Position numbers and translations under genes: made by a program
In this document: one piece after another, positions 34,470 through 52,742 of the stretch
How the letters are laid out: each line of letters begins with the position of its first letter
Position numbering within the stretch: the stretch's first letter is position 1
The notes under the pieces: model-generated
The model's input: the letters and a program-made list of their open reading frames with translations, nothing else
Databases searched by the model: none
What the model was told of the DNA's origin: nothing
NCBI GenBank assembly: GCA_009729775.1
Contig: GCA_009729775.1_4081.1
DNA length: 64,000 nt
Strand: one strand, 5' to 3'
From: Escherichia coli
Lineage (GTDB): Bacteria; Pseudomonadota; Gammaproteobacteria; Enterobacterales; Enterobacteriaceae

Positions 34470-34590
34470 TTACTCACCGTTATGAACTATCTTACAGATA
34501 CTTCTCTGCACCCTGTGGGCTAGTTTTTGTCTATGCGTATATAATAGCAAAGGGACTGACCGGAGTCAATCCCTTTTTTTATTCTTTTTT
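34470..34590. repeat. repeated intergenic composite element (GCACCCTGTGGGCTAG core and AAGGGACTGACCGGAGTCAATCCCTTTTTT hairpin)
   Basis: near-identical copies at about 36390-36510, 39760-39870, 43790-43920. Confidence 0.6.
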
Positions 34591-36062: not shown

Positions 36063-36065
36063 TAC

Positions 36066-36389: not shown

Positions 36390-36510
36390 TTCAGTACTGA
36401 ATACTTATATAATAGATACACTTCCGCACCCTATGGGTCAGTGAGTTATCTCTCAATGAATATATAATAGCAAAGGGACTGACTGGAGTCAATCCCTTTT
36501 TTAATCTTTT
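36390..36510. repeat. repeated intergenic composite element, copy 2
   Basis: as above. Confidence 0.6.
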
Positions 36511-37998: not shown

Positions 37999-38021
37999 GT
38001 GTTGTTAGTACTGCAAAGTTA

Positions 38022-38840: not shown

Positions 38841-38861
38841 TTTAATTTCTCTCTTTTAGTT

Positions 38862-39689: not shown

Positions 39690-39759
39690 TTACTCCTGGT
39701 TATGTCGTTATTAAACATTATACGGGGTTATAGATAGTTTGCAATTAGTTTTTCAGTAC

Positions 39760-39870
39760 TAGCCACCAGCATATAATAGATACATTTATGCACCCTGTGG
39801 GCTGATTTGTTTCTATGCGTATATAATAGCAAAGGGACTGACCGGAGTCAATCCCTTTTTTAATTCTTTT
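39760..39870. repeat. repeated intergenic composite element, copy 3
   Basis: as above. Confidence 0.6.
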
Positions 39871-40189: not shown

Positions 40190-40297
40190 TGTATTACTCC
40201 TGATTGTGTTAGTACTTCTACGATGGCATGAATGATCATAAGTACAGCTAACACAACAATCATCGGATTCATTTGCATAAGCTGTACTCCTTATATA

Positions 40298-40510
40298 TTA
40301 ATCTTTCAGCCAATGATCTTGAATGAATTTTTCACAGAATCCCTGTTTCATAGATTCTAACAGGCGTTCACGGTGAGCGGCGGCATATTGCTCAGTACTA
40401 TGCGTTACGCCAGGTTGATAACGTGAAACACCGTCTGGTCCGATATATTGAACATCCCACGGTTTTTCGTTAGTATCAGACCATTTACGAACGATTAGTT
40501 GACCTTGCAT
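40298..40510 (-). CDS. hypothetical protein
   Basis: 70 aa ORF with promoter cassette and AGAGGA RBS. Confidence 0.55.
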   Translation of the reverse strand: MQGQLIVRKWSDTNEKPWDVQYIGPDGVSRYQPGVTHSTEQYAAAHRERLLESMKQGFCEKFIQDHWLKD

Positions 40511-40527
40511 GTTTCTTTCCTCTTAGT

Positions 40528-40587
40528 GGGGAGAATCATTTCTCCCCTTCATGTAACTTATTATACAGTACTAGATTACATTGTCAA
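40528..40587 (-). promoter_or_regulatory. early promoter cassette (TTGACA-16-TATAAT) and hairpin GGGGAGAA-tcat-TTCTCCCC
   Basis: -35 at 40582-40587, -10 at 40560-40565, hairpin 40528-40547 (coordinates on plus strand). Confidence 0.6.
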
Positions 40588-40593
40588 TAGTTT

Positions 40594-40917
40594 TTATTCA
40601 CCTTGTTTGAATATAGTTTTCTCCATTGATTCCATGATTGCAACCAATACAGCATGGATCTCACTTAACGCGGCATCACTAAAAGCATTAATGAATAGGC
40701 AATCATTCTCGCGAATATTTTTAATGTACTTATCAGCAGTGGTTGCGAATTCATTCAACGGCAGATCAAATGCTTTATCCCATAATGGATGGCGTAACTG
40801 TAACAGTACTGGATTATCACGGTCACCAGGTGAGAAAGTGCCTGTAATGAAACATACACCAGGGATACTTTCGAATTGACAACGAACTTCTTTTGTGATA
40901 GTAGTATGAATATACAT
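40594..40917 (-). CDS. hypothetical protein
   Basis: 107 aa ORF. Confidence 0.55.
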   Translation of the reverse strand: MYIHTTITKEVRCQFESIPGVCFITGTFSPGDRDNPVLLQLRHPLWDKAFDLPLNEFATTADKYIKNIRENDCLFINAFSDAALSEIHAVLVAIMESMEKTIFKQGE

Positions 40918-40944
40918 TTATTTTTATCCTCTATTAAATTAATA

Positions 40945-41133
40945 TTACAGTTTATGAATCAATTCTTTATCCAAGCGATAGCGAACATTATTGATTGTAA
41001 CTGCATTGTTTTTAATGCTACGCTGTACAGGTCCACCAGCAATAACAAACGTTGCCTTATTGCCCCGAACGATGATAGCACTTCCAGGATTACCGAAATC
41101 ATCTTGTACTAAAATGCTTGATAAGTTTTGCAT
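40945..41133 (-). CDS. hypothetical protein
   Basis: 62 aa ORF. Confidence 0.45.
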   Translation of the reverse strand: MQNLSSILVQDDFGNPGSAIIVRGNKATFVIAGGPVQRSIKNNAVTINNVRYRLDKELIHKL

Positions 41134-41149
41134 TTGTCTTTCCTTGTAG

Positions 41150-41208
41150 TGGGGAGAACTATTCTCCCCTTCATGTAAACAATTATACAGTACTGAAAAC
41201 TAATTGCA
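41150..41208 (-). promoter_or_regulatory. early promoter cassette (TTGCAA..TATAAT) and hairpin
   Basis: reverse complement of intergenic region. Confidence 0.5.
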
Positions 41209-41212
41209 AGTA

Positions 41213-41569
41213 CTATGATAAAATCATTATAGGATATTCACTATCAATCAGTACTTCAAAACCAAAACTTTCATACCATTCTTTAAGATTAAATGAGTTA
41301 TCTTCTCCCGTATCGCATTCTAAGATGATACAATCTGAATCATCGGCCGCATCAATAAAGGCATTCATTAATTCAGTACCTTCACCGTTACCGCGATTAT
41401 CGGGATCAACATAAAGAGAATCAATAAACGCTACACGATCATAATCAAGATCTGGTGCAACAATGCCACGTTTAACAAACCAGTACTGCAATTGTGCTAC
41501 TTTGCCTTGTACTTGATAGCCAGTGATCTCACCATTGTCTGTAGTACGCGTGATATGTTGTATACCCAT
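41213..41569 (-). CDS. possible GNAT-like acetyltransferase (weak)
   Basis: segment VAFIDSLYVDPDNRGNGEGTELMNAFIDAA resembles GNAT acetyl-CoA binding motif. Confidence 0.35.
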   Translation of the reverse strand: MGIQHITRTTDNGEITGYQVQGKVAQLQYWFVKRGIVAPDLDYDRVAFIDSLYVDPDNRGNGEGTELMNAFIDAADDSDCIILECDTGEDNSFNLKEWYESFGFEVLIDSEYPIMILS

Positions 41570-41632
41570 GATTTCAATCCTCAGTTAAGATATAAAATAT
41601 TATACACTAACTAACAGTACTGTCAATACTTT

Positions 41633-41890
41633 TTATCTCATAGATCTATGCCAACAATTACGCGGTTGACGTTTAAAAATACTATCATGATCCTCCTGGC
41701 AAGTTATGCAGTACTTACATCCCTTAACGGCCTGGCGACGTTTCTCAGGGATTATATCACCGCAGTCGAGGCAATGTATCAGTGATTCTATTTGTGCGTT
41801 AATTTGCGTTCTAGCGTGGTTAACAGCGGCCTGAATCACTGCGTTAATCTCGTCTTGCTCGGCCCCATCTTTCGTGAATCCTACAGCCAT
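41633..41890 (-). CDS. TraR/DksA-family C4 zinc-finger protein
   Basis: CLDC-x17-CITCQ (C-x2-C-x17-C-x2-C) signature in 85 aa protein. Confidence 0.6.
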   Translation of the reverse strand: MAVGFTKDGAEQDEINAVIQAAVNHARTQINAQIESLIHCLDCGDIIPEKRRQAVKGCKYCITCQEDHDSIFKRQPRNCWHRSMR

Positions 41891-42119
41891 TATTTTAACC
41901 TCATTATAAAAATACTATAGTACTGTAATGCGACAATAATATTACTTGTTCTTACTTTTTCCAATCCACATGATACAACATATTCATCCCCATATGTTCG
42001 AAACGAAACACCATGAAAATTTTTATACACTTGCACTTCTAATCATAACCTTTTGTCTAACCAACTGCGTAGAATTATACTACTTTACGCAAATTGATCA
42101 AGTATTGATCAGATCATTT

Positions 42120-42200
42120 TTTGATCAATATTATACAGTTACATTTGTGCACCCTATGGGTTAGTGCCTTGTGTCCGGCTTATGTACTTATTATACAGTA
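42120..42200. repeat. variant element with GCACCCTATGGG core and CCGGCTT hairpin
   Basis: similar to 50110-50200. Confidence 0.4.
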
Positions 42201-42221
42201 CTTGATGATATTGTCAATAGT

Positions 42222-42419
42222 TTATTTTAATTTTTTTCTGTCATTGATTAATGCTTTCAGTACTATACTAATAACTTGCAATGATTCATCAATGACTATA
42301 AAATTATTTTCTTTCATTAGATGATAGTTACCATTGATTGTATATTCTAATGAGTACTGTTTACGTTTAATTTTTGATAATGTATCAATTTGTTTTTGTA
42401 CTGATTTCATGCTAATCAT
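42222..42419 (-). CDS. hypothetical protein
   Basis: 65 aa ORF. Confidence 0.45.
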   Translation of the reverse strand: MISMKSVQKQIDTLSKIKRKQYSLEYTINGNYHLMKENNFIVIDESLQVISIVLKALINDRKKLK

Positions 42420-42526
42420 TGTTAAACGTCCTGTAATGCATTCTAACGAGATAAACGGTTTAGTACTGGCATTGTATAGGGTAAATGATTAAAGCCCACC
42501 AGCGTTAACCAGTGGGCTATAATCTT

Positions 42527-42670
42527 ACATCTTGCGGATAATCTTAACAGTATCTTTCACCGATTTACCGTCTTGCTGACATTGTTCGATCATCGCGTAT
42601 TGTTCTGCGGTCAGATCCTCGCCAGTTTTTGCCAGTACTGCGTCGATGAATGAATCCAGTGCGATCATTT
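42527..42670 (-). CDS. hypothetical small protein (below track cutoff)
   Basis: 47 aa ORF MIALDSFIDAVLAK... Confidence 0.3.
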
Positions 42671-42767
42671 TATTTCTCTCTTAGGTTAAGTTAACTACTG
42701 TTGATAAAAGTTATTATACAGTACTATCAAACATTGTCAATAGATTTAATAGTACTGGTAATATATT

Positions 42768-42947
42768 TTAGCGGTAATCGTCGTATGCTTTATTAACCTG
42801 GCGAATGTAACTTTCAAAGGCTTCGTCTACCGTTTCATACTCCCGAACATAATCACCATAGGAAACTACATACATCCCTTTTTGATCTTCAAACGTCATG
42901 ATGATAGAATCCAGTCCGATGATTTCAGTTTTTGCGATAATAGCCAT
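42768..42947 (-). CDS. hypothetical protein
   Basis: start at MAIIAKTEI; repeated promoter cassette upstream. Confidence 0.5.
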   Translation of the reverse strand: MAIIAKTEIIGLDSIIMTFEDQKGMYVVSYGDYVREYETVDEAFESYIRQVNKAYDDYR

Positions 42948-43038
42948 TTTAGTATTCCTTAAATTAATATGCGTTGTCTTGATAAAAGTTATTATGCCAG
43001 TACTATCAAACGTTGTCAATAGTACTGTGATAATATTT

Positions 43039-43251
43039 TTAGTTAATGATAGTCAGTGTAAAATTGTAATCCCCTGCCTGGTATAGTACTTTATCGCCGA
43101 ACGTGCCAACACGTTTCATATTGCAATAGATACCCATAACATTTTTTACATCTTTGATATTCCGAACGCCAGTGATATCCTTGTTGAAATTTTCATGATC
43201 AGAAAATAAAACTTGTTTTGCATTTTTCAGTACAGTGCAGATATTAGCCAT
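43039..43251 (-). CDS. hypothetical protein
   Basis: 70 aa ORF. Confidence 0.5.
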   Translation of the reverse strand: MANICTVLKNAKQVLFSDHENFNKDITGVRNIKDVKNVMGIYCNMKRVGTFGDKVLYQAGDYNFTLTIIN

Positions 43252-43270
43252 TTCGATTTCTCTCTGTTAG

Positions 43271-43338
43271 TAGGGAAGTACTGTTACTTCCCGTGCCTTG
43301 ATGTAAACTATTATACAGTACTATAATCTATTGTCAAA
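43271..43338 (-). promoter_or_regulatory. early promoter cassette (TTGACA-16-TATAAT) and hairpin GGGAAGTA-acag-TACTTCCC
   Basis: reverse complement of intergenic region. Confidence 0.5.
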
Positions 43339-43351
43339 CTATTTTTTAATA

Positions 43352-43693
43352 TTATTCAAAATCTTCTGGACCGGACTGATAATCATCCTCACCGTATGCA
43401 CTTTCTAACTTCTCGCCAGTGTAATCATCAGTTAGTGAGTCATCCTCATAGTTCACGTCTACGCCCGTGATGTAAAACTGGCTATCGTCTGGATCATTGA
43501 AATTAATTTTCTGAATGTTTACAATAACTGTATTGATACCCAGGACACAGCCATCAGCCGTTACAAAGTACTGATATTTTTCACATCCACCACTATTGAA
43601 ACCGTAATTGATTTCGGCCCGACCATCATTTAAACGCAGTGCCTGAGCGATGATTTCGTTTTCAAAGTTAGATTGAGCAATTGCAATAGTCAT
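43352..43693 (-). CDS. hypothetical acidic protein
   Basis: 113 aa ORF. Confidence 0.55.
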   Translation of the reverse strand: MTIAIAQSNFENEIIAQALRLNDGRAEINYGFNSGGCEKYQYFVTADGCVLGINTVIVNIQKINFNDPDDSQFYITGVDVNYEDDSLTDDYTGEKLESAYGEDDYQSGPEDFE

Positions 43694-43789
43694 GATTCGT
43701 TTCCTTATTACCAGGGGAAACCGTTTCCCCTTGCGATGTAAAACATTATACGCCTATTGATATAGTTTGCAAGTACTTTTTATCAAATA

Positions 43790-43920
43790 CTTTAAAATAG
43801 TTTTCAGTACTCAATCATTATACAATAGATACACTTATGCACCCTGTGGGCTAGTGAGCTATCTCTCAATGAATACATAATAGCAAAATGGCTGACCGAA
43901 GTCAACCACTTTTTTTCATT
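43790..43920. repeat. repeated intergenic composite element, copy 4 (more diverged hairpin)
   Basis: as above. Confidence 0.5.
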
Positions 43921-44054
43921 TATTTTTAGCTTTTAGAATCGCCGCCTTTCGCGTCATGCCTTGCTTGATGTACTCCTTTACTTTCGCTTTACGTGCTTTC
44001 GCTTTATCTGCTTTCGTTTTAGGAGTACTGTAAATTAAACCGTTAGGATTCATT
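43917..44054 (-). CDS. hypothetical small basic protein (below track cutoff)
   Basis: 45 aa Lys-rich ORF MNPNGLIYSTPKTKADKAKARKAK... Confidence 0.3.
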
Positions 44055-44139
44055 TAAATCACCATAAAGAATAGATAGGTTACTAACAATGCCGCCAGTA
44101 CTGCACCGACCAGGGCCGAACTATAGTAAGCTAATGATT

Positions 44140-44292
44140 TCATTTTTTAGCCTGAAAGTAATGTTTAATTTGTGCGGCGGTCAGTGCACAATTACGCAGG
44201 AAGTTTTCTGTATAACTTTTACGAGTACTGAAAGAGTACTGACCTTTCCCGTTACCGATAGTAACATCAAACCGAGCGTTATATTGTTTCAT
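44140..44292 (-). CDS. hypothetical small protein
   Basis: start at MKQYNARFD; track MVLP extension is hairpin. Confidence 0.45.
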   Translation of the reverse strand: MKQYNARFDVTIGNGKGQYSFSTRKSYTENFLRNCALTAAQIKHYFQAKK

Positions 44293-44309
44293 TTTGTTTC
44301 TCCTAGTAT

Positions 44310-44382
44310 CGGGGAGAACCATTCCCCCCCTCTATGTAAACAATTATACAGTACTGAAAACTAATTGCAAGTACTTTCTAAG
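44310..44382 (-). promoter_or_regulatory. early promoter cassette (TTGCAA..TATAAT) and 5' hairpin
   Basis: reverse complement of intergenic region. Confidence 0.5.
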
Positions 44383-44567
44383 TAATGTTTATAAGCTGAA
44401 TCAACCACTCTTTCGATAACATACGCTAACGGCACGTATCCAACTACATGACTACAATAAAAAGGACTACGATTAGAATCATCGTATGCAAATACTTTTT
44501 CAGGATCTGCATCAATCACATACATATTAACCTTTAAGATGTCTATCTTATCCTGTACAGTAAGCAT
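44361..44567 (-). CDS. hypothetical protein
   Basis: start at MLTVQDK; upstream part of track ORF overlaps another small ORF in a different frame. Confidence 0.45.
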   Translation of the reverse strand: MLTVQDKIDILKVNMYVIDADPEKVFAYDDSNRSPFYCSHVVGYVPLAYVIERVVDSAYKHYLESTCN

Positions 44568-44571
44568 ATTA

Positions 44572-44742
44572 CGCCGCCTTATCAGTACTGGCAACCGGAC
44601 GGATACGGGCCATTTCATGGGCTTGTTCCACACTGTAACGCTCATAAAGGCGGCATTCTTCCGGTGTAGGAACAGCATCAATACGTTTCATTGGTTTAAT
44701 GATGCTTTCAACTTCATTCAGTACTTGATTAACGTTCATGGT
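44572..44742 (-). CDS. hypothetical small protein (below track cutoff)
   Basis: 56 aa ORF MNVNQVLNEVES..., stop 2 nt before next ATG. Confidence 0.35.
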
Positions 44743-44790
44743 ATAATCCCCAATATAAGCGGCCTAAATCGACCGCTAACGATGTTTTGA

Positions 44791-45060
44791 TTAATAGGTG
44801 TATGGTTGACGCTCAAACAATGATTGCACGTTGTACGCCCCGCTAATGGGCTTTGCTGGCAAATCAATTTTATATTGTTCACGCTTAAAAATAATAAAAC
44901 GGCAATTGTTTTTAACATCAAAATTGATTGAACGTTCCAATAGCTTTCCTTCGTGTACAAATACAAGATAACCGCTTGCTACTTGTTTTGTAGTACTGGT
45001 TGCAACCATTGACCGACGAACATGAGTACCTGCATCGATTAAAGTACTGATATTTTTCAT
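44791..45060 (-). CDS. hypothetical protein
   Basis: 89 aa ORF. Confidence 0.5.
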   Translation of the reverse strand: MKNISTLIDAGTHVRRSMVATSTTKQVASGYLVFVHEGKLLERSINFDVKNNCRFIIFKREQYKIDLPAKPISGAYNVQSLFERQPYTY

Positions 45061-45140
45061 TTTACTATCCTCTTAATTTGATTTAATTTCTTTCCCCTAT
45101 GCAGACACTATATCAAAGTATCTGCATAAAGTAAAGCTAA

Positions 45141-45485
45141 TTAAAGATCTTTTTTGCGTTTAACATCAGTTACCGAACTGTAAACAGTGATATTATTGTC
45201 ACGGCAAAAACGGGAAAGATAAGAACCGCGTAAAAACTCTTTATCTTCCATATTAATAACCTTGCTAAATTCTTCCATTGCTACAGTGTCAAAGTGATCC
45301 CCGTATCCATATTGGAACGGCACGTTTACTACTTCAATAAAATTACCATCAATTTCTACGTCTACACTTAAAGAGAAATAAGTGTTACCATATGAAGCCT
45401 GGAACCAACGCCGAGCGGCAATATGTACAACTTCAACAGAAGACAGGTTGATATTTTGTGCTGAGATAGTGTTGATGTTAGCCAT
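45141..45485 (-). CDS. hypothetical protein, paralog of 38517..38840
   Basis: shared motifs, C-terminal VKRKKDL. Confidence 0.6.
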   Translation of the reverse strand: MANINTISAQNINLSSVEVVHIAARRWFQASYGNTYFSLSVDVEIDGNFIEVVNVPFQYGYGDHFDTVAMEEFSKVINMEDKEFLRGSYLSRFCRDNNITVYSSVTDVKRKKDL

Positions 45486-45566
45486 TTTAATTTCCTCTTA
45501 GTTGTCTTGATAAAATCTATTATGCCAGTACTATCAAACTATGTCAATAGTACTGTGATAATAATT

Positions 45567-45779
45567 TTACTTACTTTGCTTTGATGCTTTATGTTGTGCA
45601 ACTGCCATCACTACATCAGCACGAACAAAGTTAGCAACCGTATCAGTATAATATTTGATTGCATCGTCAATATCTGCGAACATCCGATACATTCCGCACC
45701 ATGATACTTTATAACCCGCTTTCACTTGTTCCAGTTTAACCAGTGAATTGTTTACTTTGATTTTTGTAATGATAGCCAT
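45567..45779 (-). CDS. hypothetical protein
   Basis: 70 aa ORF, N-terminus MAIITK similar to 42768..42947. Confidence 0.5.
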   Translation of the reverse strand: MAIITKIKVNNSLVKLEQVKAGYKVSWCGMYRMFADIDDAIKYYTDTVANFVRADVVMAVAQHKASKQSK

Positions 45780-45862
45780 TTTTGTTTCCTCTTAGTTGTC
45801 TTGATAAAATCTATTATGCCAGTACTATCAATCTATGTCAATAGTACTGTGATAATAATTTT

Positions 45863-46006
45863 ACTTACTTTTTGCTTTCTTTATTGCTTCCACCTGGTCG
45901 GCCCACTCTTTACCCCATACTTGAGCGTTATAGTGATACTGACAAAGAGCAACGCCCCGTTTCAAACCAGTGATAGATTTTTTACCACATTGACAAGTTT
46001 TCATTT
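45863..46006 (-). CDS. hypothetical small Cys-containing protein (below track cutoff)
   Basis: 47 aa ORF MKTCQCGKKS...CQYH with its own promoter-hairpin cassette and RBS. Confidence 0.4.
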
Positions 46007-46020
46007 TTAGTTTCCTCTTA

Positions 46021-46086
46021 GTGGGGAGAATCATTTCTCCCCTTGATGTAATGTATTATACTTTATCCGATTTACTTTGCAAGTAC
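46021..46086 (-). promoter_or_regulatory. early promoter cassette (TTGCAA..TATAAT) and hairpin GGGGAGAA-tcat-TTCTCCCC
   Basis: reverse complement of intergenic region. Confidence 0.5.
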
Positions 46087-46089
46087 TTT

Positions 46090-46317
46090 TTAGTTTAATT
46101 CATCCAGGCATAAGATACGATCTACGCCGAGATCCGTTAAGCTAATGGTTGGCACTTGATAGGTTTCAATGTATTCTACACTAGCCCACTGACCGAACTC
46201 ATTCACCGCCCAGGTATTCATTGCAAAATGTAATTCCGCACCTTTCTTATTAGTAATTACAGCAACAGTAGAAGAATTGCCAGTAGTACCAGATACGCGA
46301 GTGATTACGATAGCCAT
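46090..46317 (-). CDS. hypothetical protein
   Basis: 75 aa ORF. Confidence 0.5.
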   Translation of the reverse strand: MAIVITRVSGTTGNSSTVAVITNKKGAELHFAMNTWAVNEFGQWASVEYIETYQVPTISLTDLGVDRILCLDELN

Positions 46318-46750
46318 TGTTTTGATTCCTATTCAGTAGTTGATGTATGTATTATGTCAGTACTTAAAACTATTGTCAAACTATTTTTTAAAGACTATCT
46401 ACGATAGCTGCCGTTTCAATAATAGACTTACCTTTTTTTGAACATGCAATAACTGCTTTAAATTCCTTTGATGACCATTCTTTTTTACTGCATACTAACA
46501 TTACTTGCATAGTGAAACAATCCAGTTCATAAGTATTCATCTTTAAATCCTCAGTTAGTTAAGGTGTCTTGCCTTGATGTAACTAATTATACGCCTTTCT
46601 CTTAATCGTGCAAGTACTTTTTATTACTTTTTGCAAAATACTTTAAACGCTCTCAATCGCATTCTAACGGCCTTAACTCCACCAGCTAGGGCGATGCATC
46701 AGATAATCAGTTTAATGCGTTAGAATCGATTCTATGAGGTGCTGACGGTC

Positions 46751-46786
46751 TGGAATGCAATAAAAACAAAAAAGCCCACTGCTTAT
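46751..46786 (-). terminator. rho-independent terminator
   Basis: AGCCCAC-N8-GTGGGCT hairpin with long U-tract on minus strand after stop of 46816..47313. Confidence 0.6.
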
Positions 46787-46815
46787 AGTGGGCTAGTGAT
46801 TCAGTACTTTAAATG

Positions 46816-47298
46816 TTATGCTTCAATTTTGCGGTGAGATTCGATCCATTCCTCGCGAGTCATACCGCTTTCTTTGATAGCATCCAGTACTACCGCAATG
46901 CAGTTACCGCGTACAGGAATCAAATGTTCTTCCCCGTTATCAAGGACAACCGTAACACGTTCTTGAATCCATTTTTTAGGCTTAGATTCCGGCTTATCTT
47001 CACCGTACTTAACCGCCAGGGCTTTATGTGCCATTTCAATAACCACTTCCAGATCTAAACCAGACACCGCCGCCTGAATACTTTCTATTGTTGCTTGCAG
47101 TTCTGCTTCACGGGCTTTTTTCTGTTCTTCCAGTTCTGCTACCTTTTTGGCTTGTAGTTCTTTCGCTTCACTGTAAGCAATGTTAAAATTGTTGCGTACT
47201 GCTTTCATGGTATCATTATCCAGGTCAGCCAGCAATTCAGCAGCAATCACAGTATCGTTAGAAATCAGTGCTTTCAGAAATGATTTTACATTAGCCAT
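46816..47298 (-). CDS. hypothetical protein, predicted coiled-coil
   Basis: start at MANVKSFLK; Ala/Glu/Lys-rich heptad-like segment. Confidence 0.55.
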   Translation of the reverse strand: MANVKSFLKALISNDTVIAAELLADLDNDTMKAVRNNFNIAYSEAKELQAKKVAELEEQKKAREAELQATIESIQAAVSGLDLEVVIEMAHKALAVKYGEDKPESKPKKWIQERVTVVLDNGEEHLIPVRGNCIAVVLDAIKESGMTREEWIESHRKIEA

Positions 47299-47482
47299 TT
47301 TATAAATCCTCAATTAAAGTTTAAGTTAGTTTATCAAAGTTTGTTTGACGTGTCCAGTTTTTCATTCGACTTACTGGCGGTCTACTTAATGTTCCCCGTC
47401 TTGATGTAATACATTCTACGCTTTTCCCTGGTAATGTCAACTACTTTTTTAAAACTATTTTCAAAGTATACCAGTACTACGA

Positions 47483-47520
47483 TAATACAAAAACAAAAAA
47501 GCCCACTGTTTAAGGTGGGC
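47483..47520 (-). terminator. rho-independent terminator
   Basis: GCCCAC-N8-GTGGGC hairpin with U-tract on minus strand after stop of 47539..47838. Confidence 0.6.
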
Positions 47521-47538
47521 TAGTGATTCAGTACTAGA

Positions 47539-47838
47539 TTATAAACAGTTAATTACTCCGGTGTGCGTTACTTTCTCAGTATCCATCACAGTGACCGAAC
47601 CGCGTTTAGTACTGGCATCATAATAAATTGTTGTGCTACCGTTTTTGTCTTCTTCATGGAACGGGCCGTTTTTAAATGCTTCCGGCTGGATCTCTAAATC
47701 CTTTAATACAATCTCGCCAGTTCTTTCATCGGTCATTGCAACAGTGCACTGAATGAATTTTTCACTACTTACATCTAATGACGCATTAACAGCGAAAGAG
47801 GAAACAGATAAAGCCAGGGCGATGATTGCAATTTTCAT
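47539..47838 (-). CDS. secreted protein with N-terminal signal peptide
   Basis: MKIAIIALALSVSSFAVNA signal-like N-terminus. Confidence 0.55.
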   Translation of the reverse strand: MKIAIIALALSVSSFAVNASLDVSSEKFIQCTVAMTDERTGEIVLKDLEIQPEAFKNGPFHEEDKNGSTTIYYDASTKRGSVTVMDTEKVTHTGVINCL

Positions 47839-47922
47839 TTGATTATCCTTAGTTACCAGGGGGAACCGCTCCCCCTTGCTATGTAAAATATTATACAGTA
47901 CTAAAAACTAATTGCAAGTACT

Positions 47923-48159
47923 TTATGATTTTTTATAAAACATTTCGGCAGTGATATTTTTACCCGTTGGCTGTACTTTATCCAGAATTTTTTGATGCCC
48001 TGGCCGTCCAAATGAATATGATCCGTAAACCGTAAACCAGTAGTTACCCTCAGTGTTTACATGTACAGCACAATAGGGAACGCCCCGCGATTCATCACTA
48101 GTAAAGTGTGCTACCGTTCCCGTTACATTCGAAGTCGTTGATTTGATTTGTTCAAGCAT
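47923..48159 (-). CDS. hypothetical protein
   Basis: 78 aa ORF. Confidence 0.5.
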   Translation of the reverse strand: MLEQIKSTTSNVTGTVAHFTSDESRGVPYCAVHVNTEGNYWFTVYGSYSFGRPGHQKILDKVQPTGKNITAEMFYKKS

Positions 48160-48266
48160 TTTCTTATTCCTTAGTTACCAGGGGAACCGCTCCCCTATGC
48201 AAAACATTATACGCGTTTAAAAACTATTGTCTAGTATTTTAATAAAAAGTATTTGAAAAATAGTTG

Positions 48267-48396
48267 TTGACAAGTGCATCCAGTACTGGCATAATACTTA
48301 CATAAAGACGAGATAGTCACTAACCCACAGGGTGCATAGATCCGTCTATTAAATGATTCAGTACTGCAAAATAAAGGGGATCAATTGATCCCCTCT
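48267..48396 (+). ncRNA. candidate small RNA unit: plus-strand promoter (TTGACA-17-CATAAT), conserved CCCACAGGGTGCAT core, hairpin
   Basis: promoter at 48267-48295, no ORF, ends at palindromic hairpin; core shared with other copies. Confidence 0.25.
48365..48396. terminator. palindromic hairpin, possible bidirectional terminator
   Basis: GGGGATC-aatt-GATCCCC with T-rich flanks on both sides. Confidence 0.4.
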
Positions 48397-48399
48397 GTA

Positions 48400-48621
48400 T
48401 TACTTAGTAAGGTATAAACAGAAGTCACCTTTATTTGCTACGCCGCCAGTGTAACGCGATGAATAGTTAGAAACGTCCTGGACTTCTGCTATTACCAGTG
48501 TATCATCATTCAATTCGTCGCAGAAGCAAACGGCTGGATCTTTTACGCCGATATTGTCGGCATGTTCCCGCATAGATTTAACCAGTGCTTCAAGTTGGGA
48601 AAGAGTAGTGATATTAGCCAT
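48400..48621 (-). CDS. hypothetical protein
   Basis: start at MANITTLSQ; track MVLP extension is hairpin. Confidence 0.5.
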   Translation of the reverse strand: MANITTLSQLEALVKSMREHADNIGVKDPAVCFCDELNDDTLVIAEVQDVSNYSSRYTGGVANKGDFCLYLTK

Positions 48622-48708
48622 TTTATTTTCCTCATTACCAGGGAGAACCATTTTCTCCCCTCTATGTAAACCATTATACAGTACTAAAAACTAATTGCAA
48701 GTACTTTT

Positions 48709-48912
48709 TTAATTTAATTGCTTTAAAACATACTCAAAGACACCACGCACATCATTGATCATCGCCTGGCGGTTAGCAGGTAACGCATCAGGATCGCCAC
48801 TATCCCAGGCATTGATAAAACTCCCCAAATCATGATAGATTTTATTCTGTAAGCCGATCAACTGCAATTCTTTTTCTTCAAGCTCTTTGATACGTTCAAT
48901 TAAATCACTCAT
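48709..48912 (-). CDS. hypothetical protein
   Basis: start probably at MSDLIERIKE. Confidence 0.5.
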   Translation of the reverse strand: MSDLIERIKELEEKELQLIGLQNKIYHDLGSFINAWDSGDPDALPANRQAMINDVRGVFEYVLKQLN

Positions 48913-48929
48913 TATATAATCCTTAGTAC

Positions 48930-49211
48930 TTAATTGTAAGATCCGCAACGGTCGCAGTAGTGCCCCTCGTCATCGTCAACGAATTGACCAACGAAATTAT
49001 CTACTTTCGCTTTCAGGTTATTATAATCGTTTTCTACTTCCTTTAAACGCTTCTGGTAGTATTCCAGTGCTTTAAGATATGCCGCATCAGTAGTTTTCTC
49101 CTGCATAGCTAAATTCATGCCACGCGTTTCATCATAAAGCCAATAACCATCAGTACATTGGCTAATAGACAATGACTTGCTTAACACTGTATAGTTAATT
49201 ACTTTGCTCAT
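48930..49211 (-). CDS. hypothetical protein
   Basis: start probably at MSKVINYTV; C-terminal CDRC pair. Confidence 0.5.
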   Translation of the reverse strand: MSKVINYTVLSKSLSISQCTDGYWLYDETRGMNLAMQEKTTDAAYLKALEYYQKRLKEVENDYNNLKAKVDNFVGQFVDDDEGHYCDRCGSYN

Positions 49212-49301
49212 TAGATAACCCTCAGTAAAGGCGGGAACCACTCCCCGCCTCGATATAAAGTATTATACGCTTTTAAACTTAGTATGCAAGTACTTTTTAA
49301 A

Positions 49302-49913
49302 TTAATATGCGATAGATTCTACTACATCGTCGATAACGTTAAATTGATATTCGTTACCCTCAATCAGTCCTACAATGTTTTCAGTAGTAAACTGGTCTTC
49401 ATAAGCATTTTCTAAATCACGGTACAGCTTACAAGATAATTCTCGGATAGTATCAGTCAGTAAGTTTTCCAGATCCTCAGCTAATGCAGCCTGTTTTACA
49501 GTTAAATCAGTGTAGCGAGTATCAACGCAACCGCCTACCGTGTTTTCGTGAGCGTAGCGTGATTGGGAACGTTCTACACTCATTTCCAAATCATCTTCGT
49601 TCAACAGGTGACGGATGGAACGATATTTCGTTAACGCCTTAACCTTGCGTAAAAACTTCTCAGCGTCAACGTGGTCAGTACTGATTGATGCACCGTCACC
49701 TTGCGACCAAAAACCACTGTATTGCAATTCAGCTTCATCTATGCCGTATTCTGGCAGTACTGTTTCTTTATAGTATTCCAGTACTGATTCAGCAAAGAAA
49801 TTATCCTCACTTGCACGTTCCCGATCCCGAACCAGTTCGATAGCCGCCGCTTGTTGTTCTGCGTTCAGTTCAGAAAAATCCATAACGAAAGTAGTAGTAG
49901 TGATAGTTTTCAT
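49302..49913 (-). CDS. hypothetical acidic protein
   Basis: 203 aa ORF; promoter TTGACA-16-TATAAT upstream. Confidence 0.6.
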   Translation of the reverse strand: MKTITTTTFVMDFSELNAEQQAAAIELVRDRERASEDNFFAESVLEYYKETVLPEYGIDEAELQYSGFWSQGDGASISTDHVDAEKFLRKVKALTKYRSIRHLLNEDDLEMSVERSQSRYAHENTVGGCVDTRYTDLTVKQAALAEDLENLLTDTIRELSCKLYRDLENAYEDQFTTENIVGLIEGNEYQFNVIDDVVESIAY

Positions 49914-50109
49914 TTTGTAACCCTCATTCAGTAGTTGATGTAAGTATTATACGCTTTTAAAAACAATTGTCAAACTATTTTATCAGGGGAGTTTTTCGTG
50001 TGCCTTACTCCTGGGCTACTTAACGGGAAGTTACTTATTTCGTTCCCCGTCCTGATGTAAAACATTATACGCCTTTAAACATAGTTTGCAAGTACTTTTT
50101 GAAAATAGT

Positions 50110-50200
50110 TTTTATCTCTTTCATATAGATACATTCCCGCACCCTATGGGCTATCGCCTTGTGTCCGGCTTGTAAGTATTATCTCACTAAGCCGGATAAC
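50110..50200. repeat. variant element with GCACCCTATGGGCTA core and CCGGCTT...AAGCCGG hairpin
   Basis: similar to 42120-42200. Confidence 0.4.
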
Positions 50201-50212
50201 GGTCAAGTACTT

Positions 50213-50479
50213 TTATTCAAGTACTGCAATCTTTTTAGTACTGTATACAGTAACGCGGTTGCCCTTTCGGTCGTGCTTTATTTCTACCACTCGACGCGAT
50301 ACACTATCAGGACTTTTTAAAACCGATCTCCAGTACTGAATTGATCGGGCTGTACTTTGCTTTACTACGGCCCAACGTTTACCACGTTCAGAATGTACGC
50401 CCATATCTTTAAACGTCGCCCCGTCCTGGCGTGCGGCAATCCGAGCAAGTTCACGCGTTGCAAAGTATATAATATTCAT
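50213..50479 (-). CDS. hypothetical protein, paralog of 38022..38417
   Basis: start at MNIIYFATREL; shared FATRE..FKDMG..HDRKGNRVTVYS. Confidence 0.6.
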   Translation of the reverse strand: MNIIYFATRELARIAARQDGATFKDMGVHSERGKRWAVVKQSTARSIQYWRSVLKSPDSVSRRVVEIKHDRKGNRVTVYSTKKIAVLE

Positions 50480-50561
50480 GCTGTTACCCCTATCGTTGTT
50501 GTATAAAAGAAATCTATTATAAAGTACTATCACCGTGCAATAGTACTTTTAATCTATTCTC

Positions 50562-50801
50562 TTACATTCCAACCATCGCCGCACGGATCGCAGTAGTGCT
50601 ATACTTAAAGCCGTCCGGTGTTTTATCTTGTCCAGTCTGTTCTAAAAATAGCATCATATGACGGGCCGCATCATTACGATTAGTGTTAGCGGCAATAAAG
50701 TCCTGGGCCAACCGGTATAATGATTCGTCGTTATTAATCCAAAGGCTTACATTCCATTGAGTTTTGTTTTTGTGACCTAAGAACATTTTTGATTTAGCCA
50801 T
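50562..50801 (-). CDS. hypothetical protein
   Basis: start at MAKSKMFLG; track extension covers hairpin. Confidence 0.5.
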   Translation of the reverse strand: MAKSKMFLGHKNKTQWNVSLWINNDESLYRLAQDFIAANTNRNDAARHMMLFLEQTGQDKTPDGFKYSTTAIRAAMVGM

Positions 50802-50814
50802 TTTTTTAATCCTC

Positions 50815-50885
50815 TTATATAGTGGGGAACTATTCCCCACCTGATGTAAAACATTATACGCTTTTAAACTTAGTTTGCAAGTACT
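50815..50885 (-). promoter_or_regulatory. early promoter cassette (TTGCAA-16-TATAAT) and hairpin GGGGAA-tagt-TCCCC
   Basis: reverse complement of intergenic region. Confidence 0.55.
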
Positions 50886-50894
50886 TTATTAAAC

Positions 50895-51257
50895 TTATTC
50901 GTAAATCTTTCCACTATCAGCCCATACCAGGAAACGAGGCATATTATCCCATGCATCTTGTTTTAAATTTAAACCGTGTAATACTTCTGTACTTTCCATT
51001 CCTGGTACTGGTTTACTATACACCGCGAACATTTCGCCCATGTACTGATAAGCCATCGTTAAATCACTGGCGATCATCTTATGAATCATCGCATCAAGCA
51101 TCACGGTAGCGGCGTATTGTTCACGCTTAAGCGGTAACATTGCAATAAGTTCCCGATAAGCTGAAATGTGAATTTTTACCGTTTCAGCCGGAAGATCTTT
51201 CATCTCTTCACGGAAGTTAACCAGGTTAGCAATAATTTTAGTGATTTGAGTAGCCAT
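50895..51257 (-). CDS. hypothetical protein
   Basis: start at MATQITKII. Confidence 0.55.
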   Translation of the reverse strand: MATQITKIIANLVNFREEMKDLPAETVKIHISAYRELIAMLPLKREQYAATVMLDAMIHKMIASDLTMAYQYMGEMFAVYSKPVPGMESTEVLHGLNLKQDAWDNMPRFLVWADSGKIYE

Positions 51258-51280
51258 CGTTTTAATCTCTCTTAAAGTGT

Positions 51281-51345
51281 AGCGGGAAGTGTTCCCGCTC
51301 TCGATGTAAAACATTATACGCCTATCGGGATAGTATGCAAGTACT
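51281..51345 (-). promoter_or_regulatory. early promoter cassette and hairpin GCGGGAA-gtg-TTCCCGC
   Basis: reverse complement of intergenic region. Confidence 0.5.
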
Positions 51346-51563
51346 TTCTACTAATACTTTTAAAATAGTTTTCTTTCTATATAGGAGTACTATCATTCAG
51401 TACTGAATCAACCAAATCACTACTATACCCCATAAAACGGCCTCAGCCGCTTTCTAACGCATTAATACACCTAAGCTATACATTTGCACCGCCACCAGCT
51501 AACCAGGGCTTTATAGGCCGTTTAAGGGCGTTAAATTATTTTCAATTATTTTGTTTTTAGCTA

Positions 51564-51700
51564 TTGACTCAGTACAAAAAAAGCGTATAATTACTACATA
51601 GACGCGAGAAAGCGGATACCCCAGGGGGTGGGAAGATCCGTCCAAAATTCATATAATTTAAAAAGGATACACTCCCGCACCTTAGCAGGTCATAGCACTT
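51564..51700 (+). ncRNA. candidate small RNA unit driven by TTGACT-16-TATAAT
   Basis: promoter 51564-51591 in non-coding region; downstream GACGCGAGAAAGCGG...GATCCGTC element related to 48300 copy. Confidence 0.2.
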
Positions 51701-51778
51701 TCTCAGTACTGAATCATAGTACCATAGTACGCCCCTGGATGGCAAGCAAATTAATTAAAACTTTTTACATCCAGGGTA

Positions 51779-51870
51779 TTGCTTTATTTTTCCAGTACTG
51801 TATAATAGTTTCATCAAGTCGAGAAAGACTCAAGCCCACCGGGTGCATAGTTGTATCTAAAATTCAGTAC
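51779..51870 (+). ncRNA. candidate small RNA unit driven by TTGCTT-16-TATAAT
   Basis: promoter 51779-51806; downstream GTCGAGAAAGACTCAAGCCCACCGGGTGCATAG element. Confidence 0.2.
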
Positions 51871-52029
51871 TGAATTATTTTTTAAAAATATCCATCCAGG
51901 CGGTTGACATATCCATCAAAAAGATAGATAATGATTCCAGATTCAGAAAAATCTAACTCCAGATACTGCGGGGAAACCATCCCCACGCGGTAGGGGAACT
52001 ATTGGAAAAAACAAAATAAAAATTTTGAT

Positions 52030-52150
52030 TTAGCCGTCTGTACTTCCAGACGTGTAACCATCTAGCCGTTTAGCCGTCCAAACGTCTAGCCATCCAGCCG
52101 CCTAGAGGGATAGCCATCTTTACTTCCAGACTTCTGGAGGGCTAGACATA
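52030..52150. repeat. iteron-like short direct repeats (AGCCGTC / AGCCATC / ACTTCCAGAC)
   Basis: at least 7 copies of AGCC[GA]T[CT] within 120 bp, non-coding. Confidence 0.5.
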
Positions 52151-52742
52151 TCTACGTCCAAAATCCACCCAGGGTAACTACGCCCAAAATCCGTCAGTAC
52201 TATACTATAGATCTATCTTTTGAAAGGGAGTATTCAGTACTGCCACAATAGCCCTCACTGTTACTGTAGGAGGATGAAGACTATCATGTAGTACTGAATA
52301 CTGTTAGAGGGAATCCACCAGCTTGTGCTGGTGGCATAATGCATTAGATTAAAATCAGTACTGACACCATTCTGTTAATATCAGTACTGTTTATATTACG
52401 AAAAAAGAGGTTATAAAAAGATGTACCACCCATAGGAGGAACTATCCTTTCAGTACTGTCTCACGACAGGAGGTAGAGTGAATGAATTGTTTGCGGCAAC
52501 TCATCTCTCTATGTAGAACATTATACAGTACTGAATCATAATGTCAATAGCTTTCTTTCATTATTCAGTACTGAAATCGTATAATCTGTATCGCTACAAA
52601 ACTCATTATATCCCACAAATCCTATATGTCCCAACGTAAATTTCAACTTTCGAAGATCCAACTTTTATTTCATAGGTACTCCAAATTTTTTACGATCCAG
52701 ATTTAGGATGGAGTACTAACCAACTTTTTGCTGGAGCCTCAA

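What the first reader, a model, noticed from the sequence alone, without database searches (positions are those of the whole stretch)
48267..51870. Promoter-driven non-coding units carrying the same core in the opposite genomic orientation
Three plus-strand near-consensus promoters (48267-48295, 51564-51591, 51779-51806) are followed by about 60-100 nt with no ORF but with the core CCCAC[AC]GGGTGCATAG flanked by AGACG...CGTCT, the reverse complement of the minus-region core. One ends at the palindromic hairpin GGGGATCaattGATCCCC. The core is therefore always in the same orientation relative to its own promoter, as expected for a transcribed RNA element.
Basis: inference. Interest (0 to 1): 0.7.

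Follow-up and report, generated by a model that had tools for sequence, protein, structure and literature searches.

The report
Jumbo-phage early structured RNA family
The three units are real and belong to an undescribed family of about ten short, promoter-driven, structured non-coding RNA modules in the terminal repeat of a Rak2-like jumbo coliphage. The family is conserved in relatives infecting at least six bacterial genera, and its function is unknown.

Summary
The window is a Rak2-like jumbo coliphage (Asteriusvirus). It carries nine significant copies, three on the + strand and six on the - strand, plus one degenerate copy. All lie between 34.4 and 51.9 kb, the part homologous to the ~21-kb direct terminal repeat of relatives.

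Each copy has the same layout:
- a sigma70-type promoter and a start at CAT;
- a small hairpin, P1, with fully compensatory stems;
- a near-invariant RCCC-AYA-GGGUGC, then a YRYCY segment.

GGGU can pair either with RCCC (Pc) or with YRYCY (P2); the two are mutually exclusive and similarly weak.

A covariance model finds 92 copies in 12 sources, covering phages of Escherichia, Klebsiella, Salmonella, Cronobacter, Pectobacterium and Yersinia plus metagenomic contigs. In a complete relative all copies sit in one 19-kb stretch. A pattern scan of 100,044 bacterial genomes gave only a chance-level hit. There is no Rfam match, no annotation and no paper.

Best reading: immediate-early, multi-copy structured small RNAs whose invariant hairpin is a recognition site for a conserved partner. 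Transcription and function are inferred, not shown. The AGACG...CGTCT flank is not general.

The parts
48267..48295 (+). Sigma70-type promoter of copy 48324: TTGACA-17-CATAAT. Predicted start at A48302 of the conserved CAT.
   Evidence: alignment A1
48302..48347 (+). RNA module. P1 is GAC(48307-09)/GTC(48316-18) with loop GAGATA. Linker ACTAA. Core CCCACAGGGTGC at 48324-48335. 3' segment CCGTCT at 48342-48347.
   Evidence: CM hit 59.3 bits, E 2.7e-12; sequence
48376..48393 (.). Palindromic hairpin GGGGATCAATTGATCCCC. It is a bidirectional terminator shared by the small RNA and the convergent gene 48400-48651 (-). It is conserved at the orthologous RaK2 copy.
   Evidence: (z -3.3 for the 101-nt transcript)
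51564..51591 (+). Promoter of copy 51620: TTGACT-16-TATAAT. Predicted start about 51598.
51598..51643 (+). RNA module of the 'end-type' variant. P1 is CGC/GCG with loop GAGAAA (51603-51614). Core CCCAGGGGGTGG at 51620-51631. 3' segment CCGTCC at 51638-51643.
   Evidence: CM hit 54.2 bits
51650..51745 (-). Degenerate convergent partner of 51620. Promoter-like TTGCCA-18-TACTAT at 51745-51716. ACCTGCTAAGGT (Pc-like, CCU...AGG) at 51679-51690. GGTGCGGGAGTGTATC at 51666-51681.
   Evidence: partial CM hit, 8.9 bits, E 0.08; weak
51779..51806 (+). Promoter of copy 51835: TTGCTT-16-TATAAT. Predicted start about 51813.
   Evidence: conserved in L121
51813..51858 (+). RNA module. P1 is AGTC/GACT with loop GAGAAA (51817-51830). 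Core CCCACCGGGTGC at 51835-51846. 3' segment GTATCT at 51853-51858.
   Evidence: CM hit 58.2 bits
51859..51883 (.). AT-rich palindrome AAAATTCAGTACTGAATT followed by a T run. It is either a weak bidirectional terminator or a protein site. The same palindrome separates convergent pairs in relatives.
50122..50206 (-). Copy 50150: promoter TTGACC-17-GATAAT plus module (core CCCATAGGGTGC).
   Evidence: (35.6 bits)
43822..43905 (-). Copy 43850: module plus promoter. The -35 TTGACT lies inside a terminator-like hairpin.
   Evidence: (55.9 bits)
42132..42217 (-). Copy 42160: promoter TTGACA-16-TATAAT plus module.
   Evidence: (32.4 bits)
39773..39851 (-). Copy 39801: promoter embedded in a terminator. 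P1 stem absent (GAAACAA only). Core CCCACAGGGTGC.
   Evidence: (37.3 bits)
36409..36492 (-). Copy 36437: promoter embedded in a terminator plus module.
   Evidence: (62 bits)
34491..34569 (-). Copy 34519: promoter embedded in a terminator. P1 stem absent.
   Evidence: (34 bits)

Best explanation
These are genes for a family of short, structured, non-coding RNAs. Host sigma70 RNA polymerase would make them as soon as the terminal repeat, the first DNA to enter the cell, is available.

Shown:
- Each unit is self-contained: its own strong promoter, a start at CAT and a module of about 46-50 nt.
- The module is a P1 hairpin with a purine-rich loop, then a 4-5-nt linker, then RCCC-AYA-GGGUGC, then YRYCY.
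- GGGU can close a 4-bp triloop hairpin (Pc) or pair with the 3' YRYCY (P2). The two are mutually exclusive.
- After the module the unit meets a bidirectional terminator (giving RNAs of about 95 nt, as at 48324), or a convergent sister unit, or the next gene's own promoter.

Inferred:
- With about ten copies per terminal repeat, hence about twenty per packaged genome, infection would flood the cell with RNAs that all display the same invariant stem-loop.
- The RNAs act in trans. The invariant RCCC-AYA-GGGUGC hairpin would be a recognition site for one conserved partner, most likely a protein of the host or the phage, which it titrates or recruits during take-over.
- P1 would serve as a 5' stabiliser.
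For: - Chance is excluded.
- Promoter coupling holds in 89 of 92 copies, and all nine window copies have -35/-10 pairs.
- P1 shows compensatory covariation at all four pairs.
- At the Pc loop-closing pair, C-G occurs 86 times, U-A 2 (a third, misaligned CCU...AGG copy is seen by eye) and U-G 3. No C...A was tallied. The base 5' of CCC is R and pairs with the invariant U in 86 of 92 copies.
- P2 is 91.5% paired against 34-64% when slid.
- Copies occur in both orientations relative to the genes. Ten of 91 run straight into a terminator that starts at a nearly constant offset after the module, 29 face a convergent sister, and 40 are followed by an independent promoter a median 36 nt from the reference point used (5 nt before the end of the CM hit). 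The downstream gene therefore does not need the unit's promoter.
- The family is confined to the terminal repeat: 9 of 9 significant hits lie within 19 kb of a 352-kb relative.
- It is confined to Rak2-like jumbo phages.
- At the orthologous pair window 48324 / RaK2 10827, the P1 stem is replaced (GAC/GTC by GCC/GGC) while linker, core and terminator are kept.
- Precedent: two highly transcribed ncRNAs lie in the terminal repeat of the related jumbo phage PA5oct (PMC7318152).
Against: - No expression data exist for any copy.
- Most gene-direction copies have no terminator of their own, so they could be 5' leaders rather than free RNAs.
- The partner is unknown. No RNA-binding domain was recognised among 48 terminal-repeat proteins.
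- No complementary or mimicked site was found in the E. coli rrn operon, and there is no excess of complementary sites in the phage genome.
- Pc and P2 are both weak, with medians of -3.75 and -2.1 kcal/mol.
- P2 support is one-sided only. In the shuffle control its percentage paired is barely above expectation, 91.5 against 90.2.
- The many copies are paralogues and orthologues, not independent samples. Alignments A4 and A5 are fitted to the model.
Confidence: 0.45

Rival explanations
1. Cis-acting leader element, working like HK022 put or lambda nut. The nascent P1/core RNA stays with the polymerase that made it and changes that polymerase's elongation or termination behaviour, for example processive antitermination across the many hairpins and terminators of the early region.
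For: - The element always lies in the first 50 nt of the transcript, at a fixed distance from a promoter.
- Six of nine window copies point in the gene direction.
- Those copies sit just after a terminator-like hairpin whose 5' arm holds the -35, as if to re-load polymerase.
- They have no terminator before the next gene.
- Two small hairpins with a conserved core resemble the general put layout (resemblance from memory, not tested).
Against: - A third of copies are convergent pairs that would drive polymerases into each other.
- Others point away from all genes, towards the genome end (51620, 51835), or straight into a terminator that closes an RNA of about 95 nt.
- The downstream genes have their own full promoters.
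- No boxA or ops sequence is present.
- An antiterminating module placed directly after each terminator would defeat the next such terminator.
Confidence: 0.22
2. DNA-level regulatory cassette. The repeated terminator-promoter-hairpin modules would be mobile or recombinogenic punctuation like the PeSL cassettes of T4-type phages. Alternatively ACCC-N3-GGGT would be an operator or roadblock site for a phage protein. In either case the RNA has no function of its own.
For: - Copies share 190-245 bp of extended similarity, including flanking promoters.
- Synteny breaks between relatives often fall next to copies.
- The core is quasi-palindromic and a perfect 12-bp palindrome, ACCCTATAGGGT, in fHe-Yen9-03. 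The CCU...AGG changes would therefore also fit a symmetric protein site.
- AGTACT palindromes, probably protein sites, accompany the units.
Against: - P1 stems differ in sequence between copies but stay complementary, while the loop is kept. That is the signature of a folded single strand, not of a duplex protein site or a recombination substrate.
- The conserved block is asymmetric: GGGTGC on one side but TAA or TAG, not GCA, on the other.
- Its polarity relative to the promoter never varies in 92 copies.
- The distance from promoter to core varies with P1 length, so it is not a fixed operator position.
Confidence: 0.15
3. Replication-origin primers. As at T4 oriF and oriG, a promoter-driven short transcript would form an R-loop in the AT-rich DNA just downstream and prime leading-strand synthesis from several sites in the terminal repeat.
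For: - The layout is promoter + short transcript + very AT-rich downstream stretch.
- The RNA segment GGGUGCGGAG is G-rich.
- Both orientations are present, including copies about 1.1-1.3 kb from the physical end and pointing at it.
- These phages have T4-like replication genes (PMC5259590).
- A GATC/TGATCA cluster follows copy 42160.
Against: - Nothing in R-loop priming explains an invariant 12-13-nt hairpin or a covarying 5' hairpin.
- About ten origins within 20 kb is implausible.
- Convergent pairs 68-90 nt apart would collide.
Confidence: 0.08
4. Base-pairing sRNA of the enterobacterial Hfq type. The conserved CCCAYAGGGUGC would be a seed that pairs with a conserved host mRNA reading GCACCCURUGGG, which contains a possible AUG or GUG.
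For: - Terminator-ended copies have the classical layout: conserved 5' part, A/U-rich spacer, Rho-independent terminator.
- P1 loops and the P1-less copies carry ARN-like A-rich tracts (AGAACAA, GAAACAA).
- Both the C and the U variant at the Y position could pair with a target G.
Against: - The 'seed' is predicted to be paired, not open, and the CCU...AGG double changes preserve an intramolecular pair.
- Most copies lack a U-tailed terminator.
- No host search was possible beyond the rrn operon.
- There is no enrichment of targets in the phage genome.
Confidence: 0.08

Closest known systems
ncRNA001 and ncRNA002 in the terminal repeat of Pseudomonas jumbo phage PA5oct (RaK2-like clade; PMC7318152)
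   Same: They are non-coding transcripts from the long terminal repeat of a related jumbo phage that relies on host RNA polymerase. They are abundant (2-5% of phage reads) and their function is unknown.
   Different: They are 236 and 451 nt long, single-copy, and annotated without known promoters. The covariance model finds no copy of the present motif anywhere in the 40 kb searched (PA5oct 1-40,000, which holds the 39,080-bp repeat). There is no sequence relationship.
Phage- and prophage-encoded trans-acting small RNAs of enterobacteria (e.g. DicF; from general knowledge)
   Same: Each has its own sigma70 promoter, a length of roughly 50-100 nt, and in some copies a Rho-independent terminator. 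No ORF.
   Different: Here there are about ten sibling copies, clustered in a terminal repeat of a lytic jumbo phage. Many form convergent pairs or lack a terminator. The conserved part is a hairpin rather than an open seed.
HK022 put and lambda nut leader RNAs (processive antitermination)
   Same: Small hairpin-containing RNA elements placed just downstream of early promoters and fixed in polarity.
   Different: No boxA. Copies point away from genes, into terminators or at each other. The downstream genes have their own promoters. No sequence model of put was available to test.
PeSL cassettes (promoter-early stem-loop) of T4-type phages (Arbiol et al. 2010; cited from memory)
   Same: Repeated early sigma70 promoter plus stem-loop modules between small genes in a plastic early region. 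The window's ordinary early genes do carry such 5'-UTR hairpins, GGGGAR-N3-9-YTCCCC, 11 times.
   Different: PeSLs sit directly in front of an ORF's ribosome-binding site and have no invariant core. These units precede no ORF, and they carry a conserved 12-13-nt core and a covarying hairpin.
Phage solitary CRISPR-repeat RNAs (RNA anti-CRISPRs; from general knowledge)
   Same: Multi-copy, promoter-driven, very short structured phage RNAs proposed to act as decoys for a host protein.

Membership tests
Any Rfam 15 family | Covariance-model score at or above the family's gathering threshold | tested here: not met
   No hit in the whole window at gathering thresholds. With E-value thresholds on 48200-48450 only chance-level hits appeared, all far below gathering.
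tRNA / tmRNA | Cloverleaf detected by ARAGORN | tested here: not met
   0 genes in the window.
lambda-type nut site | boxA consensus (CGCUCUUA, or rrn GCUCUUUAACAA) next to the hairpin | tested here: not met
   No match with up to 2 mismatches in any of the nine units.
lambda-type nut site | boxB hairpin with a GNRA-like pentaloop | tested here: inconclusive
   P1 is a 3-5-bp hairpin with purine-rich loops of 6-8 nt (GAGAAA, GCGAAA, AGAACAA). This is similar in flavour, but the loop size differs and some copies lack the stem.
HK022 put-type antiterminator RNA | Lies in cis upstream of the terminators and genes it reads through | tested here: not met
   Met for some gene-direction copies only. 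29 of 91 copies face a sister unit, 10 of 91 end at a terminator, and three window copies point away from all genes.
HK022 put-type antiterminator RNA | Direct binding to RNA polymerase and terminator read-through | not testable with these tools
   Needs in vitro transcription.
RfaH ops element | GGCGGTAGNNTG in the non-template strand of the leader | tested here: not met
   No match with up to 2 mismatches.
Hfq-dependent trans-acting sRNA | Own promoter and a Rho-independent terminator with a U tail | tested here: inconclusive
   A promoter is present in 89 of 92 copies. A terminator comes first in only 10 of 91, including window 48324.
Hfq-dependent trans-acting sRNA | Single-stranded conserved seed complementary to target mRNAs | tested here: inconclusive
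   The core is predicted to be paired. No target was found in the rrn operon and there is no excess in the phage genome. The host transcriptome could not be searched.
PeSL regulatory cassette | Early promoter plus stem-loop directly upstream of an ORF's ribosome-binding site | tested here: not met
   The units precede no ORF. Another full promoter, a sister unit or a terminator follows. The mechanical ORF 51628-51873 is not conserved.
RNA anti-CRISPR (solitary repeat unit) | Sequence and structure mimic the host CRISPR repeat | tested here: not met
   The longest shared words with E. coli I-E and I-F repeats are 8 and 7 nt, which is chance level. The repeat sequences were taken from memory.
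T4-type R-loop origin (oriF/oriG) | Promoter followed by a DNA-unwinding element in which the transcript persists as an R-loop | not testable with these tools
   An AT-rich stretch does follow the module. R-loop formation cannot be computed here.

The most novel reading that the evidence does not exclude
The units encode a new class of immediate-early viral RNA. It would be a bistable (Pc versus P2) hairpin module made in about twenty gene copies from the first DNA to enter the cell. It would neutralise or re-programme one conserved host factor, such as an RNA-binding immunity or RNA-decay protein, or RNA polymerase itself, by direct protein-independent binding. That would make it an RNA-only host-takeover or anti-defence device shared by all Rak2-like jumbo phages.
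Probability: 0.2. Interest if true: 0.85.

Novelty: new variant of a known kind. Interest (0 to 1): 0.62.

Why it matters
Rak2-like jumbo phages (121Q, PBECO4, phAPEC6, RaK2, K64-1, GAP32, CBB and others) are widely isolated and considered for therapy, yet their 20-kb terminal repeats are annotated only as rows of hypothetical proteins.

This work shows that the repeat also carries a conserved family of about ten promoter-driven structured RNA modules. They are unannotated in every record inspected and absent from Rfam and from the searchable literature.

They sit on the first DNA to enter the cell and use the host's own polymerase, so they are candidates for the earliest acts of take-over or counter-defence. 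Their invariant hairpin gives a precise handle for finding the partner.

The family also supplies an alignment of about 92 sequences with real covariation, enough to seed an Rfam family and to correct the annotation of these genomes.

Tried and rejected
- Rfam at gathering and E-value thresholds, and tRNA/tmRNA: nothing.
- Sense or complementary match of the core in the E. coli rrn operon (16S, 23S, 5S, three tRNAs): none with up to 2 mismatches.
- boxA, rrn boxA, ops and CRISPR repeats: none.
- PA5oct (1-40,000, which holds its 39,080-bp terminal repeat), searched with the model: no hit.
- Bacterial and archaeal genomes (100,044 species) scanned with a 28-nt pattern: one chance-level partial match in a Clostridia MAG, 12 bits and no P1. 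The element is therefore not a host RNA family.
- Complementary sites elsewhere in a complete relative's genome: about as many as for shuffled cores.
- Pfam and PHROGs on 48 terminal-repeat ORFs, looking for an RNA-binding partner: only a DksA/TraR zinc finger, a ParE-like domain, a GNAT, weak kinase hits and DUFs.
- A pseudoknot between the P1 loop (AGAUA) and the 3' UAUCU: fits some copies only; rejected by eye.
- The 81-aa ORF 51628-51873: frame not conserved.
- A Fur-box-like palindrome, seen between convergent pairs in relatives: absent from the window.
- The first 14-mer scan of IMG/VR was dominated by random hits.
- One literature search was wasted on over-broad terms.
- Searches for the core string and for papers on these phages found no description.

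Full report
**What the window is.** The region 47.8-52.3 kb matches Rak2-like jumbo coliphages at 87-92% identity: EC22.5-2, WPEC5, UB, phAPEC6 and 121Q, with genomes of 348-386 kb. In vB_Ec-M-J the homologous stretch lies inside an annotated 21,525-bp direct terminal repeat (DTR). Position 1 of that genome aligns to window 52,911, and the far DTR boundary maps to about 33.1 kb. CBB has a 22,456-bp terminal repeat (PMC5259590) and Sharanji one of 20,668 bp (PMC11895373). So window 33.1-52.9 kb is the DTR. Its genes run on the minus strand, each with its own sigma70-type promoter. The + strand points towards the physical genome end.

**Checking the observation.**
- The 16-nt core occurs five times with up to 2 mismatches, against 0 expected. 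A looser core occurs six times against 0.09 expected.
- Two of the three + strand promoters score 11/12. The third (51779-51806) has a perfect -10 but a poor -35.
- The hairpin at 48376-48393 is real. It also terminates the convergent gene 48400-48651.
- The mechanical ORF 51628-51873 is split between reading frames in relatives.
- The AGACG...CGTCT flank is not general. At 48324 its GAC is one arm of a hairpin described below.

**The family is larger.**
- A regular-expression search and then a covariance model (R1) find nine significant copies in the window: 48324, 51620 and 51835 on the + strand; 50150, 43850, 42160, 39801, 36437 and 34519 on the - strand. Scores are 32-62 bits.
- A degenerate convergent partner of 51620 lies at about 51650-51745 (-).
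- All nine copies have a -35/-10 pair.
- Over 12 sources the model finds 92 copies. These cover the window, RaK2, Munch, GAP32, CBB, fHe-Yen9-03 and three metagenomic jumbo contigs.
- 89 of the 92 have TTGNNN-N15-19-NANNNT upstream. The -35 is TTGACA in 38 and TTGACT in 27, and the spacer is 17 nt in 55.
- In the complete 352-kb genome of EC22.5-2, all nine significant hits fall within 30.8-49.6 kb and none elsewhere.

**Anatomy.**
- After the -10 comes a conserved CAT, with the start presumably at the A.
- Next is a hairpin, P1, of 3-5 bp. Its stems differ between copies but stay complementary: GAC/GTC, AGTC/GACT, CGC/GCG, TGAG/CTCA, GCCG/CGGC, GGAG/CTCC, AGCA/TGCT and CCAC/GTGG. Its loops are purine-rich: GAGAAA, GCGAAA, AGAACAA, AGATAA.
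- About a fifth of copies keep only the A-rich tract (GAAACAA) without a stem.
- A 4-5-nt linker (CTAA/CTAG) leads to the near-invariant CCC-AYA-GGGTGC. Six variable bases follow, then YRYCY (GTATCT, CCGTCT, ACGCCC and others).

**Structure tests: P1.** In the 27 in-register copies all four pairs carry double changes: 56 doubly changed cells against 20 in shuffles (0 of 500 shuffles reach it), and 32-43% paired when slid. These copies were selected for pairing at three positions, so the percentage paired is circular there. The diversity of pair types is not. On the model-fitted alignment of 77 copies there are 121 doubly changed cells against 46 in shuffles.

**Structure tests: P2.** P2 pairs GGGUGC with x1-x6 of the 3' segment. 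It is 91.5% paired against 34-64% when slid, but only through one-sided G-C/G-U and U-A/U-G changes. The shuffle control is almost as high, at 90.2%.

**Structure tests: Pc.** RNAalifold instead prefers a hairpin, Pc, of RCCC-loop-GGGU. Its loop-closing pair is C-G in 86 copies, U-A in 2 (a third, misaligned CCU...AGG copy is seen by eye) and U-G in 3. No C...A was tallied. The R before CCC pairs with the invariant U in 86 of 92 copies.

**Pc against P2.** The two share GGGU and are mutually exclusive. Both are weak, with medians of -3.75 and -2.1 kcal/mol. Pc is the more stable in 60 of 90 copies and P2 in 29. Which one forms, or whether the module switches, is open.

**What follows the module.**
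- In 40 of 91 copies another complete promoter starts a median 36 nt from the reference point used there (5 nt before the end of the CM hit) and serves the next gene.
- 29 copies face a convergent sister unit. Most partners sit at one fixed spacing, with a 21-nt AT-rich palindrome between the two 3' segments, so the two cores form a 15-20-bp inverted repeat.
- 10 copies, among them window 48324 and several other copies antisense to the genes, reach a GC-rich hairpin plus T run that mostly starts at a nearly constant offset. This predicts RNAs of about 95 nt.
- In gene-direction copies the -35 lies inside a terminator-like hairpin, for example GGGATTGAC-TCCG-GTCAGTCCC-TTT.

**Distribution and prior knowledge.**
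- BLAST with the transcribed part finds 60 records, all Rak2-like jumbo phages. Nearly all have no RNA feature under the match, and several show overlapping 'hypothetical protein' CDSs.
- A specific 28-nt pattern hits only seven IMG/VR contigs of 109-378 kb.
- In 100,044 bacterial and archaeal genomes it gives one chance-level partial match.
- There is no Rfam match.
- The CBB, Sharanji and PA5oct papers and a 2026 review of jumbo phages do not describe the element. The core string appears in no relevant paper.

**Interpretation.** Three facts argue that this is a folded RNA and not a duplex DNA site: the fixed polarity, the promoter coupling and the P1 covariation. Several further facts fit a self-contained RNA gene family acting in trans better than a cis leader:
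- orientation independent of the genes;
- terminator-ended copies;
- independent promoters for the downstream genes;
- high copy number;
- a core that stays invariant across phages of at least six host genera while everything around it drifts.

I put this reading at 0.45. The partner and the effect are unknown. I found no RNA-binding domain among the DTR proteins, no rRNA mimicry or complementarity and no enrichment of phage targets. Four rivals remain: a put/nut-like cis element (0.22), a DNA-level cassette or operator (0.15), R-loop primers (0.08) and an Hfq-type base-pairing sRNA (0.08).

**Verdict.** This is a real, conserved and undescribed structured-RNA family of jumbo-phage terminal repeats. 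The kind, small phage RNAs, is known. The architecture is not: multi-copy, with terminator-embedded promoters, convergent pairs, an invariant triloop hairpin and restriction to the DTR.

Noticed in passing
whole window; densest at 32.7-54.3 kb: The palindrome AGTACT occurs 253 times in 64 kb against about 21 expected, and 137 against 7 in the terminal-repeat part. The next most frequent 6-bp palindrome occurs 35 times. A complete relative has 919 sites, again densest in the repeat. The sites lie in promoter spacers (CAGTACTGTATAAT), at -35 regions (AGTACTTGCAA), in coding DNA, and at the centre of AT-rich palindromes after the RNA modules. This suggests a genome-wide protein or modification site.
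   Followed up: partly
window 34456, 35917, 37324, 39763, 41033, 42496, 46679, 51492, 52315 (- strand); 52327 (+ strand): There are nine Chi sites (GCTGGTGG) on the gene strand, all inside the terminal repeat, plus one on the opposite strand next to the physical end, and none elsewhere in the window. Given the known orientation dependence of Chi recognition by RecBCD, this orientation should face RecBCD entering from either genome end. Two of the sites lie just after RNA modules (34456, 39763). In EC22.5-2, nine of the 16 same-strand Chi sites lie in the repeat.
   Followed up: partly
window 34541-34575, 36464-36498, 39823-39857, 43877-43910 (- strand): Composite terminator-promoters. A GC-rich hairpin flanked by an A run and a T run (GGGATTGAC-TCCG-GTCAGTCCC-TTT) contains the -35 TTGACT of the next promoter, with TATTAT as -10. 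The arrangement is conserved in RaK2, Munch, GAP32 and CBB.
   Followed up: partly
window 35458-50838 (11 sites, e.g. 38866-38880, 43714-43730, 47860-47874, 48181-48195): Hairpins GGGGAR-N3-9-YTCCCC occur 11 times against 0 expected, all in the terminal repeat. In the cases read (for example 38866, 43714 and 44311) they lie in the 5' UTR of an early gene, between the CAT start and the ribosome-binding site. They look like PeSL-type leader hairpins or 5' stabilisers.
   Followed up: partly
window 52028-52192: A block of iteron-like degenerate repeats lies about 0.7-0.9 kb from the inferred genome end: TAGCCGTCY, CCAGACG and twice CTACGYCCAAAATCC. The CGYCCAAAAT motif also forms the 3' segment and tail of the end-proximal RNA copies (51638-51650, and L121 copies 1111 and 1327). 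It may be an end-specific protein site for packaging or replication.
   Followed up: no
window 42075-42135 (- strand), just after copy 42160: A cluster of GATC/TGATCA motifs (TTGATCAAAAAATGATCTGATCAATACTTGATCAA) lies after copy 42160, between ORFs 42222-42419 and 41633-41890. The same cluster is present in vB_Ec-M-J. It could be a Dam/SeqA-type or origin-like site.
   Followed up: no
L122 (RaK2) ~7010-7290 and ~8040-8070; L123 (Munch) ~1040-1060 and ~7435-7455; L126 (fHe-Yen9-03) ~340-365: In relatives the spacer between some convergent RNA pairs is a palindrome close to the E. coli Fur box, for example GATAATGATAATCATTTAC in Munch (the Fur-box consensus was recalled from memory). No such site exists in this window with up to 3 mismatches.
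   Followed up: partly
window 33.2-51.3 kb, minus-strand ORFs: Among 48 small terminal-repeat ORFs, Pfam recognises one match each to a DksA/TraR-type zinc finger (a family known to bind RNA polymerase), a ParE-like toxin domain, a GNAT acetyltransferase, DUF1033, DUF7247, DUF7249, weak kinase-like domains and a few other weak hits. The output does not say which ORF carries which domain.
   Followed up: no
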